Source of the DNA: a virus
DNA: 6,149 nucleotides
Reading direction: 5' to 3' (one strand)
Virus record (IMG/VR): IMGVR_UViG_3300029256_000055
Coordinates: 1 to 6,149 of that record
The notes under the pieces were generated by a model, which was given only the letters and a program-made list of their open reading frames with translations, did no database searches and was not told the DNA's origin. Of this stretch, positions 1-5,909 are shown in pieces; the stretch's first letter is position 1, and every line of letters starts with the position of its first letter. The translations under genes and the position numbers were made by a program.

Positions 1-77
1 GCTCTTCTAGTTTTCCTTTTCGCAGCATGATTACTCCGTGCAAGGCTTCTGTATATTCCTGTTCTTCTTCTGCCTTT
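1..77. repeat. Terminal direct repeat, copy 1 (identical to 6073-6149); overlap from linearising a circular molecule
   Basis: Base-by-base comparison shows 1-77 (gctcttctag...tgccttt) equals 6073-6149 with no mismatch. The repeat is bounded by the window ends. 77 is a k-mer size commonly used by de Bruijn assemblers. Confidence 0.97.
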
Positions 78-136
78 TCACCCATTTTTCCTAGTTTTTC
101 CGTCGTCTTGCATAGTTCTTTTTCACATTCTTCCAT
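1..136 (-). CDS. N-terminal part (ATG at 136..134) of a junction-spanning 100-aa hypothetical protein; continues at 6072..5906
   Basis: The - strand reads ATG GAA GAA TGT GAA AAA ..., giving MEECEKELCKTTEKLGKMGEKAEEEQEYTEA, followed by LHGVIMLRKGKLEEQ. The TTG at 43..41 equals the TTG 'start' at 6115 in the ORF track and is in frame with ATG 136 (93 nt = 31 codons). An in-frame TGA at 145..143 closes the frame upstream. Confidence 0.6.
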   Translation of the reverse strand, partial: MEECEKELCKTTEKLGKMGEKAEEEQEYTEALHGVIMLRKGKLEE

Positions 137-142
137 TTTATT

Positions 143-337
143 TCATTTTAAGTTAAAATTAGTACTGTCATTCTCTTGATTGGCGCTGGCATTCTGGTCT
201 ACTTTCTGCTCGCTGTTGCTGTTGTTCTTCTGGATATTCAAGCTTATCACACACCCTCCTAGCGTTGCCGCGACTATCCATGCTAATACTAACAGTTTTA
301 TCAGTTTTTCTTCCTTTTGACGCTTAACATTCTCCAT
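143..337 (-). CDS. Small putative lipoprotein (64 aa), function unknown
   Basis: The N-terminus has a basic n-region (MENVKRQKEEKLIK) and a hydrophobic h-region (LLVLAWIVAATLGG). A lipobox-like L-G-G-C follows, with Cys29 encoded at 253..251. The predicted mature part is about 35 aa and rich in N/Q/S. The ORF is on the same strand as all phage genes and within the gene-dense block. Confidence 0.6.
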   Translation of the reverse strand: MENVKRQKEEKLIKLLVLAWIVAATLGGCVISLNIQKNNSNSEQKVDQNASANQENDSTNFNLK

Positions 338-507
338 GATTTTTTACCCATTTCTGTTAAATACTTCCCTAACTCCTTGTAGCCTCCGCAGGTGGTAGTC
401 AGAGTTACTATATCTCCTGTACCTTCGTTAACGAATTCGATGTCGAATATAACGAATAATTCTGTTTTTTGACTTGTTTCTTCCATTTTTTTTGATATAT
501 TAATCAT
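301..507 (-). CDS. Hypothetical protein (68 aa)
   Basis: The ORF is on the coding strand. Its ATG (507..505) overlaps the stop of the upstream ORF in the sequence ATGATTAA, and its 3' end overlaps the next ORF by 37 nt, which is typical microvirus packing. I recognise no motif. Confidence 0.45.
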   Translation of the reverse strand: MINISKKMEETSQKTELFVIFDIEFVNEGTGDIVTLTTTCGGYKELGKYLTEMGKKSWRMLSVKRKKN

Positions 508-772
508 TACCTAGTGTCCATATAACCTTCCAGCTTTTGCACTTTTCTTCGAGCGCACCGCCAATAAACAGATTGGGAAATAACTCTTTCATCTTTCTGA
601 TTGTTTCCTTGGCTATGCGTTCTTCATAGAACTTCTCGACCGTTATCTCGTCCTTGAATATGATTGTAAGTCTGTAATGCCTTTTGTCTTCGGTTTTGGC
701 TTTTTTTTCCATAATTGATAGTTTTAATTTTTCTTTCTGTATTGCAAATATAGGCATTTTTTTTGAAAACAC
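500..772 (-). CDS. Hypothetical protein; the track start at 772 is GTG, and the more likely start is ATG 712..710 (70 aa, MEKKAKTEDKRHYRL...)
   Basis: The ORF is on the coding strand and is the first gene after the long intergenic region. A Bacteroides-type promoter motif lies inside the first 20 codons of the long form, which favours the internal ATG. I recognise no motif. Confidence 0.5.
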   Translation of the reverse strand: MFSKKMPIFAIQKEKLKLSIMEKKAKTEDKRHYRLTIIFKDEITVEKFYEERIAKETIRKMKELFPNLFIGGALEEKCKSWKVIWTLGND

Positions 773-775
773 AAA
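745..775 (-). promoter_or_regulatory. Candidate Bacteroidota sigma-AB-type promoter (-33 TTTG / -7 TAnnTTTG) driving the small-ORF/capsid operon
   Basis: The - strand reads TTTG (775..772), then 19 nt, then TATATTTG (752..745). This matches the published Bacteroides consensus of -33 TTTG and -7 TAnnTTTG at roughly 19-21 nt spacing. It lies about 33 nt upstream of ATG 712. Confidence 0.4.
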
Positions 776-860
776 ATTTTTTGAACATTTCCTATTATAA
801 TCATATAATATTTTTCTATTAAAAAATAAATCTATATGTATATGATAGCCTGTTGAAACT

Positions 861-958
861 GTTCATAACTTTGTTAATTCATTTATTTTCAATCATTTAC
901 CTTGTTTATAACTTTGTTTATAACTTTTCATTTATTTATTTGTATTGTTCATAACTTT
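861..958 (+). repeat. Iteron array A: four copies of GTTYATAACTTT (861-872, 904-915, 916-927, 947-958), with interspersed CATTTATTT motifs
   Basis: Read directly: gttcataacttt, gtttataacttt, gtttataacttt (the last two in tandem), gttcataacttt. catttatttt/catttattta occurs at 880-889, 929-938 and 998-1007. The block is very AT-rich (about 14 G+C in 861-940 by hand count). Confidence 0.8.
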
Positions 959-1002
959 TTTCGTATAGTAAAACATTTCATTATTCCAAATTTTAAGCAT
1001 TT

Positions 1003-1068
1003 ATTTTATCAACAAGTTATTAACAGGTTTATCAACCGATTTTTATAGGTTATCAACAGGTTATTAAC
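1003..1068 (-). repeat. Iteron array B: five 11-12 nt units GTTRATAAC(Y)T on the - strand, as three tandem units plus two tandem units
   Basis: The - strand units are GTTAATAACCT (1068..1058), GTTGATAACCT (1057..1047), GTTGATAAACCT (1036..1025), GTTAATAACTT (1024..1014) and GTTGATAAAAT (1013..1003). They sit in an 11-12 nt register with a 10-nt gap at 1037-1046. The core GTTNATAAC is the same as in array A but in the opposite orientation. Confidence 0.85.
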
Positions 1069-1073
1069 ACCCA

Positions 1074-1209
1074 CAAGCCGAATACTTGGAGGCTTGCATA
1101 TAGTTGGCAGCATGACCACCCGCGAGTGCTGTCGCGGGTAGCGAGCTAGCCTCGCGTAGTCATGTTAATAAGCGCGGCCTCTGGCCGCCTACCTTCGAGT
1201 CACTCAAGG
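1074..1209. other. GC-rich hairpin cluster (island A) immediately downstream of rep; candidate ssDNA origin/primosome site and/or terminator complex
   Basis: Hairpins read from the sequence are listed here. caagcc/ggcttg pairs at 1074-1079/1091-1096. A three-way junction at 1111-1164 has outer stem catgac/gtcatg and encloses acccgcga/tcgcgggt (1118-1125/1132-1139) and gcgag/ctcgc (1141-1145/1151-1155). gcggcc/ggccgc pairs at 1174-1179/1183-1188. ccttcgag/ctcaagg pairs with one bulge at 1192-1199/1203-1209. About 51 of 80 nt are G+C in 1111-1190 by hand count. Confidence 0.6.
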
Positions 1210-1211
1210 AT

Positions 1212-1229
1212 GGCGAAGCTGGCGAAGCT
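1212..1229. repeat. Perfect tandem duplication GGCGAAGCT x2, abutting and overlapping the rep stop codon
   Basis: ggcgaagct at 1212-1220 is repeated at 1221-1229 and followed by agcgag. The rep stop TAG is at 1230..1228. Confidence 0.9.
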
Positions 1230-2178
1230 AGCGAGACTTCCGGTACCTTAGCCTTGCCTGACGCATCTTCTCCAGTCTTGCCTTGGTTTTTTCGCGCTCC
1301 CAGTCTTCTGGATTGTCACCGTACAGTTGCTCGGCTCTTTTTTGATAATACTTTGTCAGGTTATCCCATTCTTCCAGATTATCCGTGCTTACCTTTTCCC
1401 CTGCTATGTACCTGTAGCCTCTTTCCTGTTTTGTTATCCATAGTTTTTCGCGTTCTTCTTCGGTGTATATCTTGTCATGGTAATACTTTGGCAACGGCAG
1501 TTCACTTCCGTTTTCCAGCTTGTAGGTCTCTTTTGTTTCCTTGCCTCTGTATGCGTTTCTTTTGGCATTATAGCTTGTTTCGTAGTTGCACCCTATTCCT
1601 GCACTGCACATTACTTTTCCCCTGAAATCAGGCCATTTTTCGCATATCTTTAGCATGTACTTAGTTACGTATGCAATTGTTGTTTGGTTAACGTAATCTC
1701 CTGTATAGGTATATCCGTATCCCCACTGGTCCACCTTTTCTCTCGTACACCATACTATTCCATGCAGGTGTATTCTCCCGTAGTCTTCTCCTTTTTCGGT
1801 CACCATCCAGTGTCTGATGGACTTCCCTGTTTTCTTTCGGATTCTTTCCAGCCATCTTCTTACGGCTACCTTGCACATCTCGTTCTGCTCGGTATAGTTC
1901 AGGTTTTCCTTGCTTTTTTTAAACAGTTCCCATGACAGTTTCTGGTAATTATCCTCGTTGAATGTCAGTGTAATGAACAGTGCGTTCGGATTGTTTTTCA
2001 GCTCTTCCGCCAGTCTTATCCTCCAGTTCCTTGCTTTTTCCTTTCTGCATTCGATGCACTTTCCGCACTTTGTCGGCACATATCTTAGTCTTTCATCCTT
2101 GCATTCTGGTACATTTCCTTGATTTTTCTTTGTGTACATGTACTTTCTGTTTAATATGTATTTGGTATATAGACACAT
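1228..2178 (-). CDS. VP4: Replication initiation protein VP4 (HUH rolling-circle endonuclease, phiX174 gpA-like)
   Basis: The 316-aa product carries RCR motif 1 FITLTF and motif 2 HLHGIVW (HLH encoded at 1770..1762). Motif 3 is a double tyrosine, YVTKYMLK (1671..1657), like YxxKY of phiX174 gpA. The N-terminus has MC... and a CGKCIECR cysteine cluster common in microvirus Reps. Confidence 0.93.
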   Translation of the reverse strand: MCLYTKYILNRKYMYTKKNQGNVPECKDERLRYVPTKCGKCIECRKEKARNWRIRLAEELKNNPNALFITLTFNEDNYQKLSWELFKKSKENLNYTEQNEMCKVAVRRWLERIRKKTGKSIRHWMVTEKGEDYGRIHLHGIVWCTREKVDQWGYGYTYTGDYVNQTTIAYVTKYMLKICEKWPDFRGKVMCSAGIGCNYETSYNAKRNAYRGKETKETYKLENGSELPLPKYYHDKIYTEEEREKLWITKQERGYRYIAGEKVSTDNLEEWDNLTKYYQKRAEQLYGDNPEDWEREKTKARLEKMRQARLRYRKSR

Positions 2179-2223
2179 AATAAAATTGTTTCACGTGGAA
2201 CATAAATAAAAAATTAGAACAGC

Positions 2224-2285
2224 ACAATGTATGTAGCATTATGGTCTGGCGCGCTTGCGTGCCTGACCTCTGGTGCATACATTGT
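2224..2285. other. Nested hairpin: 10-bp outer stem enclosing an imperfect GC-rich hairpin (start of GC island B)
   Basis: acaatgtatg (2224-2233) is the exact reverse complement of catacattgt (2276-2285). Inside it, ggtc-t-ggcgcg cttg cgtgcc-t-gacc (2243-2268) folds with one G:T pair and one T/T mismatch. Confidence 0.6.
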
Positions 2286-2295
2286 ACTGTTCTTA

Positions 2296-2361
2296 GGCGA
2301 GCGCCGACTGAGCTCCACCAACTGGCGAGTTCCGCATGGCGCGTTAGGGATAGTAGGCGAG
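2296..2361 (+). repeat. Three spaced copies of GGCGAG (2296-2301, 2324-2329, 2356-2361), two of them in the context TAGGCGAG
   Basis: Read directly: ttaggcgagcg, ctggcgagtt, gtaggcgagta, with spacings of 28 and 32 nt. The related motifs GCGAG and GGCGAAG recur in island A (1122-1126, 1141-1145, 1212-1235) and at 3521-3525. Confidence 0.5.
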
Positions 2362-2362
2362 T

Positions 2363-2422
2363 ATGGCCTTTAGGCCATTTGTCTGAGCCGGATAGCCCGA
2401 CCCCCTTGCGGGGTAACGCCCC
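2363..2422 (-). other. Hairpins directly downstream of the VP2 stop: a CCCC-GCAA-GGGG hairpin (GNRA loop in - sense) with an alternative GGGG/CCCC pairing, and ATGGCCT/AGGCCAT
   Basis: Plus-strand cccc ttgc gggg at 2402-2413 reads CCCC GCAA GGGG in - sense, and gggg 2410-2413 can alternatively pair with cccc 2419-2422. atggcct tt aggccat lies at 2363-2378. No U-tract follows either hairpin, so they are not canonical intrinsic terminators. Confidence 0.5.
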
Positions 2423-3490
2423 CTATAATTTTCCTACAATCATCTTGATGATGCTTCCAAGCATCTTTGCGTATTCTCCTTGACCTGTCATCTCGTCCAG
2501 CATCTTGCTGAATGCCTGGTCTTGTTCCAGCTCCCAGTCTTCTCTTTCGTATTTTTTCAGCATTAGCTGTAGTTCCTGTGTCGGCTTGGTCATCTCGTCC
2601 AGCTTCCCTTTTGCGATTAGTCCTATATCATTGCTTAGCTTGTCGAGAATCTTCTTGTCGAATAGCATCTTCTTTTCGTCGTGAGACAGTGTTGCCATGT
2701 CTTTCTTGAAGTTTTTGTAGTACCTTTCTATCACGGTTTCCTCCCATCCCTGAGACTTTCCATTTTCGTACCATACGCTCGACTTGATAACGTTGTTCAT
2801 GTCGTCCTGGAACTGTGCGATTCTGGTCTGTACTTCCTTGTTTTCGATGTTTGCCTTGATAAGCTTGATTGATTCTTCGGTCGCTTCTGCTGTTTTTTTC
2901 AGGTTCTCGATTTTCTGTTCTACTTCCTCGGTATCTTTCTTGTTCTTCCTTACTTCGGCTACTTTCTTTGCCAGGTCTATTCCTATACCTACCAGATTTT
3001 CAACCTTTTGAGCTGTTGTTTCGCTTCTTGTCTTTTCGGCTTGTGCATTTATCAGAGCTGTCTGTGCAGCTGTCTGTTGTGCCTGTAATGCTACTTGTAG
3101 TCCCATTGGTTGCATTGCCGTTGCCGGACTGACCGTTGCACCGTGTGCCTGACCCGGACTTCCCGACCCTCCGTTTAGCAGTGCCGGATTCAGTCCTGCA
3201 GCTTTCATCTGCTTTACCTGGTTTTCGTAACCGGTATAGTCAAACATTTCCTTGGCATATTCCTGACTCTTTGCCGCGGCTTCCTTGTTCCATTGGTTCT
3301 GTAGTTCCATCCTTCGGTTTTCGTCTCTGTTTTGCAACGCATACATCTCTCGCCCGTATTCCATCTGTTTTTGCTGGAGCTCTCTTTGCATGTCCCTGTC
3401 CTTTGCGCTGCTTACTGCTCCTGCTATGGTTCCTGCGAGCCCGGTAATTAAGCCACTTCCTCCTCCTCCTAAAAAATCTAAAAATCCCAT
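2423..3490 (-). CDS. VP2: DNA pilot / minor capsid protein VP2 (phiX174 gpH analogue)
   Basis: The 355-aa product has a Gly-rich hydrophobic N-terminus (MGFLDFLGGGGSGLITGLAGTIAGAV). It also has the conserved-looking MKAAGLNPALL motif and a long charged, coiled-coil-like C-terminal half. Its position and size are typical of microvirus VP2. Confidence 0.85.
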   Translation of the reverse strand: MGFLDFLGGGGSGLITGLAGTIAGAVSSAKDRDMQRELQQKQMEYGREMYALQNRDENRRMELQNQWNKEAAAKSQEYAKEMFDYTGYENQVKQMKAAGLNPALLNGGSGSPGQAHGATVSPATAMQPMGLQVALQAQQTAAQTALINAQAEKTRSETTAQKVENLVGIGIDLAKKVAEVRKNKKDTEEVEQKIENLKKTAEATEESIKLIKANIENKEVQTRIAQFQDDMNNVIKSSVWYENGKSQGWEETVIERYYKNFKKDMATLSHDEKKMLFDKKILDKLSNDIGLIAKGKLDEMTKPTQELQLMLKKYEREDWELEQDQAFSKMLDEMTGQGEYAKMLGSIIKMIVGKL

Positions 3491-3506
3491 AACTTGATTG
3501 TTTTCG

Positions 3507-3523
3507 CGCTTTTTTGAAAAGCG
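3507..3523 (-). other. 7-bp hairpin 17 nt upstream of the VP2 start codon
   Basis: cgctttt (3507-3513), ttg, aaaagcg (3517-3523) form a perfect inverted repeat. It is immediately adjacent to a degenerate iteron copy, aggttattacac, at 3524-3535. Confidence 0.6.
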
Positions 3524-3551
3524 AGGTTATTACACTAGATTATAATGGCTA

Positions 3552-3575
3552 CATGCGTACCCGAAGGTACGCATG
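3552..3575 (-). other. Perfect 10-bp hairpin capped by a UUCG tetraloop in mRNA/viral sense, 20 nt downstream of the VP3 stop
   Basis: catgcgtacc (3552-3561), cgaa, ggtacgcatg (3566-3575). In - sense this reads CAUGCGUACC-UUCG-GGUACGCAUG, with a C(UUCG)G closing pair. No U-tract follows. Confidence 0.7.
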
Positions 3576-3594
3576 ACTTGTTGAAGTCCTACTG

Positions 3595-3921
3595 TCATGT
3601 AGGTTGCCCAGCATCTGTTGATGCGCCGCCTTGAGCGGTATCTTTCTTTTCTGTTTCTCCGCTTGGAGGTTGTTGACCTTTTGCAATGCGCTCCCTGTTT
3701 ACTCGATCCATCGCGTCTTGCGCAATTTCCCACTTGTCTGCTCTCACGTCGTATTGTGGCATTACTCCCTTTTCTTTCGGCGTATAGATTAATGGTGAAG
3801 TATCCTTGATAGGCTCTCCTGTTTCCACTAATTTCTTGCATCTGTCCTCAATGGACTGTCCTTCGTATGATTCCACCCCGAATTGGGTAAAACTTCTTGT
3901 AATGATTCTTGGCTTTCCCAT
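3595..3921 (-). CDS. VP3: Internal scaffolding protein VP3 (probable)
   Basis: The 108-aa ORF starts 5 nt after the VP1 stop. The segment GVMPQYDVRADKWEIAQDAMD resembles the Y-(D/N)-(I/V)-R-x-D-(R/K)-(F/W)-x-I-A core I recall from gokusho/alpavirus VP3 proteins. The C-terminal tail is low-complexity and polar. Confidence 0.72.
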   Translation of the reverse strand: MGKPRIITRSFTQFGVESYEGQSIEDRCKKLVETGEPIKDTSPLIYTPKEKGVMPQYDVRADKWEIAQDAMDRVNRERIAKGQQPPSGETEKKDTAQGGASTDAGQPT

Positions 3922-3926
3922 ATTGC

Positions 3927-5909
3927 TTACATTAAAGGTATCTGTGCTGCGCTCATAACGCGTCTTGCTATAATTCTCTTTCCTATCTGTACCCAGAAGT
4001 CCCTGTTTGTCTCCGTGTTGGTTGCGAAGATGTACGTATAGTCTTTTGGTGAGATATATGTACTTGGATTGGTAATCGCTCCCGCTTCATTAACGTTATA
4101 CACTCTGTTCAGCACCATGTAGCTCTCGGCTTCTCCTGCTGCGAAATCTGCATACGTCTTGTTTACGTCCGTCATGTAGTTCAGCCATGCAGGCTGCTTT
4201 CCTATCGCTTCTTTTAACAAAGCCTCGCCGTGCATCTGATTGCTTAATAAGTCCTGGTATCCGACTCCGTCCAGCTGTGGTTTGTGCAGGTCGTCCATGG
4301 TTTTCAGTTGCATCATATCCCAGTCGTTACCCTGTGAGTAGTCTACATTCGGCGTGATGCTTGCAATACCGATGATATAGCACGGTTCGTTGCACTTGAT
4401 TTTGATTCTGCCGCCTTTTTTCCCCTGGTTAAATCCACGTCCCGCCATGCTTCCTAATGGTTCTTCCACTCCGCTTGCCGTTGATGCCGAGTTTGATACC
4501 ACCGCTTCAAAGTCGATTGTTGTTGACATACCTCCCTCGTATACTGGAGTTTCGGCTCTGAAGTAATAGTCTGTTGTGTATACGGTTTCAATCCAGTCCT
4601 TGTAACTTCCGCCGCTGATTGCAATGCGGTTCAGCATGTTGTACACTTTTTGTGCCAGGTTCAGCGCGTCCAGGTTAAGTTTTCCTCCGCTTACGTCTAC
4701 GTCTGTTACCGCGTTGATTCCATTATCACCGTCTACCCACTCTTTGTTCACCCAGTTGTTGAACAGGTCTGACTGGTGTGTTTTCAGACATAGTCCTCCC
4801 ATCTCAGAAGTTACGATTGGCGGAATATTCTGCGTTGTTCCTGCGGTTTCAGGATTCGGACTGAACAGTACATTGTAAATGAATAGTGACTTAAGTTTTT
4901 CGTCGCTTCCTTCTCCGATTCGGATTTGTTCACGTCCCTTACTCAGGATATATTCTCTTAAGTCATCGATTTCTGATAGTGGGAACGAGCTTGTGTATGA
5001 GTCTGTTACTGTTCCTTGTGCGATATTTTCGGTTGTTCCTTTAAGGGTTATGCTGGTTCCGTTGTTTGCTTCTATTTTTCGTGATGTTCTGTAATAAACT
5101 CCTTCTCTTGATTTGATTACTATTTTGTTTTTTTCGATAGATACTTTTTCCCATGAAGTTTCGATTGCAATTATATCTATGTATATAGGCTGTGAATCTA
5201 ATGTGAATTTTATTTTTTTTATGTCTTCCAGCTTTAAATCTGTCCCTGTAATTGTTACCGTAGCCGGGGATGTACAGATTAAGTAATGACTTGGATTTGT
5301 AAATTCATTATTACTTACGGTTCCCGTAAAATCTCCGGACACTATCGCCGACGCATTCTGAATCGAACTGCCGCCCATTATATAGAACCATTCTTCCTGC
5401 TTGTTGGCATAATAGTTTTTGAACACGTCATAATATGCCAGGAACGGTACAATCTGATAGTCACCTTTATAGAGCTTGCTGTCTGCGTCATGTGGTCCTT
5501 TCCTTACTCCCAGATATTCAGCCAGGCTTCCTTTCCCCATCTTGTAGTTCTTTGTCCACATACCTGCCGTTGGCAGTTTTACCTTGCTCATATCCAGTCC
5601 GATATTGAGTGTGTTGTTATGCAGCATTGCGTTGTACAGTCTTATAGGACACGTAAATACGTCTGCCTGGAACTTGAAGTTCCCGAACAGTGGCCCGATA
5701 GTCGGATGTGTCATGATTCGTGTGTCCAGGTCGATATCAAATGTATCGCCAGGCAATCCTACCAGCTTCATGAATGGTACCAGTGTACCTACTCCCATAG
5801 GACTGCGCCATGCACTTGACAGGTTGTGTGTGCTTCTTCCATACTCTCTAAGGGAGACCGACATCTTGCCGGAATCCCCTAGTGTGTTTTTTCCGATGTT
5901 TACTTTCAT
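3927..5909 (-). CDS. VP1: Major capsid protein VP1 (phiX174 gpF family)
   Basis: The 660-aa product has the N-terminal motifs RSTHNLS...GTLVPF...LPGDTF...THPTIGPLFGNFKFQADVFTCPIRLYN, which are characteristic of microvirus and Alpavirinae VP1. It is the largest ORF. Its ATG overlaps the upstream ORF stop as ATGA. Confidence 0.95.
   Translation of the reverse strand: MKVNIGKNTLGDSGKMSVSLREYGRSTHNLSSAWRSPMGVGTLVPFMKLVGLPGDTFDIDLDTRIMTHPTIGPLFGNFKFQADVFTCPIRLYNAMLHNNTLNIGLDMSKVKLPTAGMWTKNYKMGKGSLAEYLGVRKGPHDADSKLYKGDYQIVPFLAYYDVFKNYYANKQEEWFYIMGGSSIQNASAIVSGDFTGTVSNNEFTNPSHYLICTSPATVTITGTDLKLEDIKKIKFTLDSQPIYIDIIAIETSWEKVSIEKNKIVIKSREGVYYRTSRKIEANNGTSITLKGTTENIAQGTVTDSYTSSFPLSEIDDLREYILSKGREQIRIGEGSDEKLKSLFIYNVLFSPNPETAGTTQNIPPIVTSEMGGLCLKTHQSDLFNNWVNKEWVDGDNGINAVTDVDVSGGKLNLDALNLAQKVYNMLNRIAISGGSYKDWIETVYTTDYYFRAETPVYEGGMSTTIDFEAVVSNSASTASGVEEPLGSMAGRGFNQGKKGGRIKIKCNEPCYIIGIASITPNVDYSQGNDWDMMQLKTMDDLHKPQLDGVGYQDLLSNQMHGEALLKEAIGKQPAWLNYMTDVNKTYADFAAGEAESYMVLNRVYNVNEAGAITNPSTYISPKDYTYIFATNTETNRDFWVQIGKRIIARRVMSAAQIPLM

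What the first reader, a model, noticed from the sequence alone, without database searches (positions are those of the whole stretch)
1074..1235. GC-rich, hairpin-dense island immediately after rep, including a compact three-way junction
Composition switches abruptly from about 17% G+C (861-940, hand count) to about 64% (1111-1190, hand count). The island folds into at least four hairpins plus a 54-nt three-way junction (1111-1164). It ends in a perfect tandem GGCGAAGCT duplication overlapping the rep stop codon. In ssDNA phages such structures mark complementary-strand origins, for example the phiX174 PriA/n' site, the G4 primase hairpins and M13 ori(-). In phiX174, hairpins in intergenic regions also coincide with leaky terminators. 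The island lies next to the iteron arrays, so together they look like a composite origin/termination region that nobody has defined for this clade.
Basis: partly seen in the sequence, partly recalled or inferred. Interest (0 to 1): 0.62.

Follow-up and report, generated by a model that had tools for sequence, protein, structure and literature searches.

The report
Accessory folded-DNA cassette after microvirus rep
A GC-rich, roughly 135-base non-coding block after the replication gene of a human-gut single-stranded-DNA phage folds into a hairpin, a three-way junction and a second hairpin; evolution has kept this fold, but some close relatives lack the block, so it is most likely an optional start site for second-strand DNA synthesis, a known kind of element whose function here is untested.

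Summary
G+C rises from about 0.19 to about 0.6, and the stretch folds better than shuffled controls on either strand (z about -3.3).

The conserved core is window 1067-1201, read on the gene-sense strand. It comprises hairpin 1, a tight 54-nt three-way junction (1111-1164), and hairpin 5 with an almost invariant 11-nt loop.

In 36 copies (27 distinct) from gut viromes and metagenomes, 13 base pairs show compensatory double changes and 99.3% of cells pair. With partners slid by 1-3 columns, about 35% pair.

The tandem GGCGAAGCT repeat and the 1192-1209 hairpin are not conserved.

The island always lies between the rep stop and the iteron array. It is missing from several close relatives. More distant relatives have a small hairpin plus a T-run at that position. 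It is therefore accessory and cassette-like.

I found no match in Rfam, tRNA/tmRNA scans, GenBank phages, plasmids or 185,579 species genomes. There is no dif-like site and no related prophage, so it is neither host-derived nor a chimera.

Best reading (about 0.45): an sso-like complementary-strand initiation signal, possibly doubling as an RNA 3'-end element, as the T_F/ori(-) hairpin does in phiX174. The functional strand and the function itself remain untested.

This scan has noted many similar microvirus islands before, including this same island in a relative.

The parts
1067..1201 (-). Conserved core of the island (135 columns of model R1), read on the gene-sense strand
   Evidence: Alignments A1 and A3. 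36 model matches at 153-168 bits. 13 covarying pairs.
1174..1188 (-). Hairpin 1: 6-bp GC stem with a variable 3-nt loop. Two alleles occur: GGCGGCC...GGCCGCC-type and GGGAGCC...GGCTCC.
   Evidence: Pairs 15:27 and 16:26 change on both sides in 13 of 27 sequences; 100% paired.
1188..1196 (-). Near-invariant unpaired 9-mer GAAGGTAGG at the 5' edge of the core
   Evidence: Invariant among the 13 sequences of A1. Columns 8 and 12 each vary in 2 of the 27 distinct sequences of A3.
1163..1171 (-). Inverted copy of the iteron 9-mer: TTATTAACA on the gene-sense strand, the complement of the TGTTAATAA units of the adjacent array. It lies in the linker between hairpin 1 and the junction.
   Evidence: Inverted repeats I12 and I13, 9/9 complementary. 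Kept in all copies as TTATYAACA or TTGTCAACA.
1111..1164 (-). Compact three-way junction. Outer helix is 6-7 bp, the inner hairpins 5 bp (loop GCTAG) and 8 bp (loop CAGCAC or CAACGC), and the junction linkers 0-2 nt.
   Evidence: Helices 2-4 are 97-100% paired, with 9 pairs changed on both sides.
1103..1110 (-). Unpaired linker CTGCCAAC. GCCAAC is invariant. The CTG is replaced by GG in one clade.
1068..1102 (-). Hairpin 5. The core stem is 1074-1079 with 1091-1096, and the near-invariant 11-nt loop TCCARGTATTC is 1080-1090. An optional G.T-rich extension of the stem reaches the first iteron.
   Evidence: Pairs 110:124 and 111:123 covary. The extension pairs only on the gene-sense strand.
1192..1209 (-). 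Weak hairpin present in this genome and its near kin but not conserved in the second Rep clade
1211..1228 (.). Tandem 9-mer (TGGCGAAGC x2 on +; AGCTTCGCC on the gene strand). It is a variable-number array, 1-5 copies in relatives, and is replaced by GAAGTTCCC-type units in the other clade.
   Evidence: D10.
1228..2178 (-). rep (316 aa, REP_ORF2-G2P domain). Its stop codon is at 1228-1230.
1005..1069 (.). Adjacent iteron array (TGTTRATAA units on the gene strand). It forms the 3' boundary of the island and is present in all relatives, with or without the island.

Best explanation
The island is an accessory, exchangeable folded-DNA module of the replication-control region. In the single-stranded genome, hairpin 1, the tight three-way junction and hairpin 5 would stay folded. 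They would present conserved unpaired stretches (GAAGGTAGG, TTATTAACA, GCTAG, GCCAAC, TCCARGTATTC) to host replication proteins. Complementary-strand synthesis would then start efficiently at a defined place.

This matches the role of single-strand origins (sso) in rolling-circle plasmids and of ori(-), the primosome assembly site, in phiX174, G4 and M13. As with the phiX174 T_F/ori(-) hairpin, the same fold may also act at the RNA level on the 3' end of the rep transcript.

Shown: the fold, its selective maintenance, its fixed position and orientation, its dispensability, and its lack of a host origin.

Inferred: that it acts as ssDNA, that it primes DNA synthesis, and which host factor (PriA-type fork recognition, primase or RNA polymerase) reads it.
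For: 1. Structure is under selection. 13 of 37 pairs changed on both sides, 99.3% of cells pair, and slid controls give 31-47%. At least a dozen separate compensatory events are spread over all five helices.

2. Helices 1, 3 and 4 are 100% Watson-Crick in all 27 distinct sequences. Helix 2 is too, apart from its innermost junction pair 44:85, which is U.G in 22 sequences and U.U in 5. Absence of wobble intermediates is expected if G.T is penalised (DNA), less so for an RNA.

3. Several unpaired stretches are invariant or nearly so while the stems turn over. This suggests sequence-specific recognition rather than a mere stability hairpin.

4. Position. The island is always between the rep stop and the iteron/AT-rich control region, and it carries an inverted copy of the iteron 9-mer. 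Plasmid sso elements typically lie just upstream of the dso, are orientation-specific, depend on structure, and can be deleted without loss of the replicon (PMC4595007).

5. It is cassette-like. Close relatives lack it, at least 6 gains or losses are needed on the Rep tree, and alleles of single helices are reshuffled between Rep clades.

6. Size, G+C and folding statistics resemble those of the experimentally defined G4 oric region folded the same way (136 nt, three GC hairpins, z -4.7).

7. Conserved hairpins with compensatory changes next to Rep have been proposed as negative-strand origins in other uncultivated microviruses (PMC9865509 section 3.8).
Against: - There are no functional data of any kind.
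- The island is absent from viable-looking relatives, so it is not required. The phage must have another way to prime, possibly the other GC-rich islands.
- The fold is nearly strand-symmetric, so the acting strand is not established. The few one-sided changes point both ways: C-G to U-G at 106:128 favours the gene strand, while C.A at 111:123 favours the other.
- Which strand this clade packages has never been measured.
- There is no similarity to any characterised ori(-)/sso.
- The CTG after the junction is not conserved.
- No promoter-like duplex is seen in the GC stems.
- The position, immediately 3' of a gene, is also what an RNA 3'-end element would show. In more distant relatives this position holds a terminator-like hairpin.
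Confidence: 0.45

Rival explanations
1. RNA-level element only. The fold forms in the 3' untranslated end of the rep transcript and acts as a non-canonical terminator, or as a barrier to 3' exonucleases that sets Rep mRNA stability. It would have no role on DNA.
For: - It begins at the rep stop codon, on the transcribed sense.
- In the outgroup the same position holds a GC hairpin followed by T7, a classic intrinsic terminator.
- Two other GC-rich structured islands follow the VP2 gene and the 108-aa ORF.
- No canonical terminator exists anywhere on the gene strand, so something else must define 3' ends.
- The extension of hairpin 5 pairs only with G.U pairs on the sense strand.
Against: - No U-run follows any helix.
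- Conserved loops and linkers, and a three-way junction, are more than a stability hairpin needs.
- The core helices show no G.U pairs at all, apart from junction pair 44:85.
- Relatives with neither island nor terminator exist.
- The RNA fold of the whole stretch has the weakest z-score of the three folds (-2.3).
Confidence: 0.2
2. Accessory part of the double-strand (viral-strand) origin. Alternatively it would present the conserved loop of hairpin 5 as an auxiliary nick or termination site, as in CRESS-virus and pMV158/pT181-type origins, where a stem-loop sits next to iterons.
For: - Hairpin 5 has a near-invariant 11-nt loop and lies directly beside five iterons.
- An inverted iteron copy sits in an unpaired linker (I12/I13).
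- The whole block lies in the replication-control region.
Against: - Relatives whose Rep is about 90% identical to the window's, with the same iterons, lack the island entirely. The nick site and Rep binding sites must therefore lie elsewhere.
- Stems of 5-8 bp and a three-way junction extrude poorly from duplex DNA.
- There is no covariation between the island's 9-mer and the first iteron.
Confidence: 0.15
3. Structured non-coding RNA with a trans function (for example a decoy or regulator), or a selfish GC-rich cassette that spreads by recombination among co-infecting microviruses and gives the phage little benefit.
For: - The distribution on the Rep tree is patchy and the alleles are mosaic.
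- A second island (2293-2422) occurs at a different genomic position in other lineages and in unrelated microviruses.
Against: - Island 1 is never found outside one locus and one orientation in 36 copies, nor outside this phage group.
- There are no terminal repeats or target duplications at the filled and empty sites.
- No promoter of its own was found.
- Strong purifying selection on the pairing argues for a benefit.
- There is no Rfam match.
Confidence: 0.1
4. Integration site (dif-like attP folded in ssDNA, as in CTX phage), a host-derived fragment, or an assembly chimera.
For: Bacteroidales microvirus proviruses flanked by dif-like sites are known (PMC3091885). One 12.6-kb metagenome contig (L150) joins this phage to bacterial genes.
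Against: - The best match to a dif consensus in the island is 17 of 27 positions. The genome-wide maximum is 20, equal to the mean maximum in shuffles.
- The island pattern is absent from 185,579 species genomes, and no Rep relative was found in them.
- There is no plasmid match.
- The L150 junctions lie at about window 170 and 879, not in the island, and they cut bacterial genes.
- The island is present in 36 separate assemblies.
Confidence: 0.02

Closest known systems
Single-strand origins (ssoA, ssoU, ssoT, ssoW types; sso1 of ICEBs1) of rolling-circle plasmids and ICEs
   Same: Both are non-coding blocks of 130-200 nt made of several stem-loops. Both lie next to the rep/dso region, depend on structure, can be lost, and are exchanged as cassettes between related replicons (PMC4595007; here).
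   Different: There is no sequence relation (no plasmid match). No conserved CS-6 or RS_B-type motif was seen: TAGCGA occurs on the + strand at 1138-1143, but it spans a covarying stem and is lost in the other clade. The host would be Bacteroidota, and this is a phage rather than a plasmid. Orientation dependence is untested.
phiX174 ori(-) / primosome assembly site (PriA site) overlapping terminator T_F in the F-G intergenic region
   Same: Both are folded elements in a microvirus intergenic region directly after a gene. The phiX174 site shows that one hairpin can act both as a terminator and as a complementary-strand origin. A branched fold such as a three-way junction is the kind of substrate PriA recognises (my own knowledge).
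   Different: There is no sequence or covariance-model similarity. The phiX174 element is AT-rich and has one long hairpin. The location differs: after rep here, after the capsid gene in phiX174. The element here is dispensable in nature.
G4 / St-1 / alpha3 primase-dependent oric
   Same: Both are about 135 nt and GC-rich, with three stable hairpins and a comparable folding z-score.
   Different: There is no homology. The CTG start triplet after the structure is not conserved here. Here two of the hairpins are joined in a three-way junction.
Conserved hairpins next to Rep in reekeekee- and roodoodooviruses (Olo Ndela et al. 2022, PMC9865509)
   Same: Both occur in uncultivated microviruses and are intergenic hairpins beside rep, with an identical loop, compensatory stem changes and the same tentative assignment to negative-strand initiation.
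   Different: Those are single hairpins of 13-64 nt in a different phage clade, and no presence/absence polymorphism was reported for them. Here there is a multi-helix module with a three-way junction and an inverted iteron.

Membership tests
Complementary-strand origin / sso (functional class) | Stable secondary structure in non-coding DNA of a rolling-circle replicon, maintained by selection | tested here: met
   z about -3.3 on either strand. 13 covarying pairs and 99.3% of cells paired.
Complementary-strand origin / sso (functional class) | Acts only in one orientation, on the displaced or packaged strand | not testable with these tools
   All 36 copies share one orientation but also one locus by descent. 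Wobble evidence for a strand is mixed. The packaged strand is unknown.
Complementary-strand origin / sso (functional class) | Promotes primer synthesis and ss-to-ds conversion | not testable with these tools
   Needs priming or ssDNA-accumulation assays.
Complementary-strand origin / sso (functional class) | Lies just upstream of the double-strand origin | tested here: inconclusive
   It is directly 5' (gene strand) of the conserved iteron/AT-rich region, but the Rep nick site of this clade is not mapped.
ssoA-type origins | Conserved CS-6 (TAGCGT/A) in a terminal loop, and an RS_B site | tested here: not met
   TAGCGA occurs only on the + strand across a junction and stem, and becomes CAGCGC in the other clade. 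No plasmid similarity. The motif definitions come from my own knowledge.
G4-type oric | Homology to G4, St-1 or alpha3 oric, and a conserved primase start triplet 3' of the hairpins | tested here: not met
   Model R1 finds nothing in G4 (best 3.2 bits). Local alignment is no better than shuffles (p 0.27-0.66). CTG is replaced by GG in one clade.
phiX174-type primosome assembly site | Sequence or structure relation to the F-G hairpin; PriA binding | tested here: not met
   No similarity was found. PriA binding is not testable here.
M13/ssoA-type RNA-polymerase origin | Promoter-like -35/-10 (or Bacteroides -33/-7) elements formed in a duplex stem | tested here: not met
   The sigma-70-type scan finds none in 1067-1235 on either strand. 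The Bacteroides -33/-7 motif was checked only by reading the sequence. Stems are GC-only. M13 gives no model match.
Intrinsic (rho-independent) terminator | GC hairpin followed within 0-2 nt by a T/U run on the transcribed strand | tested here: not met
   No such site lies on the - strand anywhere in the window. The outgroup does have one at this position.
Any Rfam RNA family, tRNA or tmRNA | Match to a curated covariance model | tested here: not met
   No match at E up to 1 in the whole window. ARAGORN finds nothing.
dif-like XerC/D attachment site | 28-bp imperfect palindrome matching the dif consensus; proviruses flanked by it | tested here: not met
   17/27 in the island, which is at the level of shuffles (the consensus was recalled from memory). 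No provirus or host copy was found.
CRESS/pMV158-type viral-strand origin stem-loop | Essential stem-loop carrying the Rep nick site next to iterons, present in all genomes with that Rep | tested here: not met
   Hairpin 5 resembles this architecture, but the island is absent from genomes whose Rep is about 90% identical to the window's.

The most novel reading that the evidence does not exclude
The island is a portable primosome-loading cassette. Its tight three-way junction would mimic a stalled fork for the host restart helicase. It also carries one inverted copy of the DnaA-box-like 9-mer found in the neighbouring arrays. In this reading, these gut microviruses recruit host initiation and restart machinery through swappable folded-DNA modules. 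Islands 1, 2a, 2b and 3 would each be such a module, exchanged by recombination much as sso cassettes are among plasmids, and would tune the phage to particular Bacteroidales hosts.
Probability: 0.15. Interest if true: 0.65.

Novelty: new member of a known kind. Interest (0 to 1): 0.4.

Why it matters
How microviruses outside the phiX174/G4 group start second-strand synthesis is unknown. These phages are among the most abundant viruses in the human gut, and almost none is cultivated.

This element is a well-delimited 135-nt candidate with unusually clean covariation. Nature also supplies with/without pairs: near-identical phages that differ by the cassette. That makes a direct test simple to design.

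The finding also shows that the rep-proximal control region of these phages is modular. Structured cassettes are gained, lost and reshuffled independently of the genes. This matters for genome annotation, for recombination analyses, and for building minimal synthetic microvirus backbones in laboratory hosts.

Tried and rejected
- **Rfam.** All 4227 families at E up to 1, both strands: nothing.
- **tRNA/tmRNA.** Nothing.
- **blastn of the island.** Against 50,697 phage records and 72,556 plasmids: nothing.
- **Loose pattern.** GAAGGTAGG..GNTTNTNAAC in IMG/VR gave 114 stretches. In the 72 new loci, model R1 found no match, so these were chance hits.
- **Species genomes.** The island pattern gave 0 hits in 185,579 genomes, and the Rep alignment found no relative, so there is no host copy and no provirus.
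- **Relation to the other islands.** Model R1 does not hit islands 2 or 3.
- **Long-range pairing.** I tested whether the island's TTATTAACA pairs with the first iteron to make a duplex box. It is not in the MFE or centroid fold, and there is no covariation. Rejected.
- **Hairpin 5 as the Rep nick site.** Rejected as the essential origin, because island-less relatives share the Rep.
- **Resemblance to G4.** CTATATGCAAGCC resembles the G4 primer-start context CTACTGCAAAGCC, but local alignment is no better than shuffles.
- **AACTTG next to the iterons.** It resembles the phiX174 nick context, but the C is variable in relatives, so it is only the spacer between two boxes.
- **dif scan.** At chance level.
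- **Crude scan for GC-rich non-coding islands in relatives.** It missed known islands because spurious ORFs overlap them, so I discarded it.
- **The look-up of sequencing runs.** Closed, so no transcript-end or strand information could be obtained.
Full report
**Context**

The window is a complete circular microvirus genome: 77-nt terminal redundancy, so a 6072-nt circle. All genes are on the - strand:
- rep at 1228-2178 (REP_ORF2-G2P domain)
- a 355-aa pilot-like ORF at 2423-3490
- the major capsid gene at 3927-5909 (Phage_F domain)

All related contigs come from gut metagenomes, several of them labelled human gut.

**Check of the observation**

G+C is 0.19-0.20 across 801-1000 and 0.53-0.61 across 1051-1250.

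Folding of 1074-1235:

| Molecule and strand | Energy (kcal/mol) | z-score |
|---|---|---|
| ssDNA, gene strand | -37.5 | -3.43 |
| ssDNA, other strand | -36.9 | -3.21 |
| RNA, gene strand | -63.3 | -2.31 |

**Relatives and covariation**

I collected copies of the island in three ways:
- The Rep protein retrieved 16 IMG/VR loci.
- Two island patterns retrieved the same 12 contigs.
- One pattern retrieved 23 ENA metagenome contigs, nearly all about 6 kb.

A covariance model built on 13 copies (R1) matches 36 copies at 153-168 bits. All lie at the same place and in the same orientation.

The RNAalifold consensus has three elements: hairpin 1, a three-way junction with linkers of 0-2 nt, and hairpin 5 with an 11-nt loop.

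On the 27 distinct sequences:
- 99.3% of cells pair.
- 13 of 37 pairs have changes on both sides (109 cells).
- No shuffle out of 500 reaches these values.
- Sliding the partners by 1-3 columns drops pairing to 31-47%, with at most one covarying pair.

Pair 68:79 shows all four Watson-Crick types. Alleles of single helices are reshuffled between genomes. For example, L005 and L006 combine the hairpin-1 allele of one clade with the junction type of the other. The counts therefore reflect roughly a dozen events plus recombination, not 109 independent events.

Several unpaired stretches are invariant or nearly so: GAAGGTAGG, TTATTAACA, GCTAG, GCCAAC and TCCARGTATTC. Overall, though, unpaired columns are not significantly less variable than paired ones (15/56 against 29/74, p 0.19).

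**Which strand**

Mirrored onto the antisense strand, the same structure pairs in 86.7% of cells. The whole difference comes from the G.T-rich extension at the base of hairpin 5 and from junction pair 44:85.

Helices 1, 3 and 4 and the core of helix 2 are 100% Watson-Crick on both strands.

One-sided changes point both ways:
- C-G to U-G at 106:128 (4 sequences) fits the gene strand.
- C.A at 111:123 (2 sequences) fits the other strand.

The acting strand is therefore not settled.

The complete lack of wobble pairs in the core helices, despite eight transition-type double changes, is more typical of a DNA fold than of an RNA. This is a soft argument only.

**What is not conserved**

The hairpin at 1192-1209 is missing in the second Rep clade.

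The 9-mer repeat is a variable-number array. AGCTTCGCC-type units occur in 1-5 copies, and GAAGTTCCC-type units in about 2-5 copies in the other clade.

The rep stop wanders from -53 to +48 relative to the start of the core. In several genomes of the second clade the Rep frame runs 48 nt into the core and stops at the TAG of the conserved GCTAG loop. Coding constraint therefore cannot explain the conservation.

**Presence and absence**

R1 finds nothing in L007, L008, L009 or L014. Their Rep is 92%, 89%, 64% and 68% identical to the window's. In these genomes, and in L161, L164 and L167, the rep stop lies in or right before the first iteron.

L158 (the contig behind L007) still keeps two 9-mer units, which suggests deletion of the island.

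A more distant group has a small hairpin at that spot: GGCGG-TTAATAA-CCGC followed by seven T. This group comprises L156, L159, L160, L162, L163, L165 and GenBank MT135366. The hairpin looks like an intrinsic terminator with an iteron and the rep stop in its loop.

On a Rep tree the island needs at least 6 changes of state. In that run L145 and L147 were mislabelled as lacking the island; one search shows they have it.

The island is thus accessory and cassette-like. I saw no terminal inverted repeats or target duplications at the filled and empty sites.

**Exclusions**

- No Rfam family at E up to 1.
- No tRNA or tmRNA.
- No blastn match in phage or plasmid collections.
- No copy of the island pattern, and no Rep relative, in one genome each of 185,579 species.
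- No dif-like site above chance.
- No canonical terminator on the gene strand.
- No similarity to phiX174, G4 or M13, by covariance model or by local alignment.
- Islands 2 and 3 are not related to island 1.

**Interpretation**

The evidence fits a folded-DNA replication accessory best.

The island is a multi-helix GC-rich module under selection for pairing, with conserved single-stranded stretches. It lies inside the replication-control region and carries an inverted copy of the neighbouring iteron (I12/I13). It is dispensable and exchangeable.

These are the properties of plasmid single-strand origins: orientation-specific, structure-dependent, usually just upstream of the dso, and deletable (PMC4595007). 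Its size and folding statistics match those of the G4 oric region.

A very similar inference was published for hairpins beside Rep in other uncultivated microviruses, with the same caveat that function cannot be certified (PMC9865509).

In phiX174 the T_F terminator hairpin overlaps ori(-) and the PriA site (bioRxiv 10.64898/2026.07.25.740675).

My estimated probabilities:

| Reading | Probability |
|---|---|
| sso-like reading, with or without an RNA role | about 0.45 |
| RNA-only 3'-end element | 0.2 |
| Accessory part of the viral-strand origin | 0.15 |
| Trans-acting RNA or selfish cassette | 0.1 |
| attP, host-derived or chimera | 0.02 |

The tight three-way junction as a fork mimic for PriA is my own inference from what PriA is known to bind. 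It is untested.

**Novelty**

This is a new, well-supported member of a known kind of element.

This scan has already logged more than a hundred GC-rich hairpin islands in microviruses. Follow-up reports mostly reached the same reading. The same island in a related genome had also been noted.

- the covariance evidence
- the exact limits of the conserved core
- the demonstration that the island is optional and reshuffled
- the exclusion of host origin, attP and known RNA families

**Limits**

The packaged strand is unknown, the Rep nick site is unmapped, and the host is not identified.

The searches for more distant copies used exact patterns, so diverged versions of the island may have been missed.

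Noticed in passing
window 2293-2422 (island 2b); L156:1302-1430(-), L162:3718-3850(+): A second GC-rich structured module lies between the pilot-like gene and rep. It is conserved in relatives, with some compensatory changes. In the L156/L162 genomes it sits at a different place, downstream of the iterons and AT-rich repeats. MT135366, which belongs to the same group on the Rep tree, shows a GC-rich stretch at that place that was not compared with island 2b. Island 2b also has 79-85% blastn matches in unannotated spacers of microviruses from rat, chicken, marmot and dog. It looks like a swappable cassette.
   Followed up: partly
window 1098-1105(-) and 2314-2321(-) region; alignments A1 and A6: Islands 1 and 2b share the 8-mer ACTAT(A/G)TG immediately 5' of a GC-rich hairpin (in the window's own island 2b the stretch reads CAGTTGGTG). 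This may be chance or a shared recognition or start motif.
   Followed up: no
L156, L159, L160, L162, L163, L165; L168 (MT135366) 1780-1800(-): In the outgroup, rep ends inside a hairpin, GGCGG-TTAATAA-CCGC followed by T7. This is a terminator-like stem-loop whose loop holds both the rep stop codon and an iteron copy.
   Followed up: partly
L150 (OGXA01002617.1, 12,617 nt) 1-5400: The contig joins a near-complete copy of this phage, lacking the equivalent of window 170-879, to bacterial genes. On one side is a truncated sodium:solute symporter, followed further along by EPSP synthase and other genes. On the other side are 55 nt that I read as a glycyl-tRNA-synthetase-like coding fragment (no search run). 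This is either an assembly chimera or an illegitimate insertion. The junctions are not in the island.
   Followed up: partly
L010, L013, L132, L133 (second Rep clade), island columns 1-56: The Rep reading frame continues 48 nt into the conserved core and stops at the TAG of the invariant GCTAG loop, adding about 30 residues to Rep. The stop position ranges from -53 to +48 among relatives.
   Followed up: partly
window 1211-1228 and homologous positions in relatives: The 9-mer array has a variable copy number (1-5), with two unrelated unit types in the two clades. On the + strand the window's unit contains GCGAAGC twice. I recall this heptamer as an unusually stable DNA mini-hairpin. The same heptamer occurs in the phiX174 F-G intergenic region.
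   Followed up: no
window 3491-3600 and 2215-2292: Islands 3 and 2a also fold better than shuffles (z -4.5 for island 3; z -3.35 for 2215-2425, which contains 2a). Each shows its own presence/absence pattern among relatives, independent of island 1.
   Followed up: partly
whole window, - strand: No hairpin-plus-T-run terminator is found on the gene strand anywhere in the genome, so transcript 3' ends must be set in some other way.
   Followed up: no
L164 (IMGVR_UViG_3300045988_089462, 8618 nt): The contig carries two diverged copies of the rep-iteron region (patterns at 2491 and 8394). It is probably a concatemer or a chimera of two related genomes.
   Followed up: no
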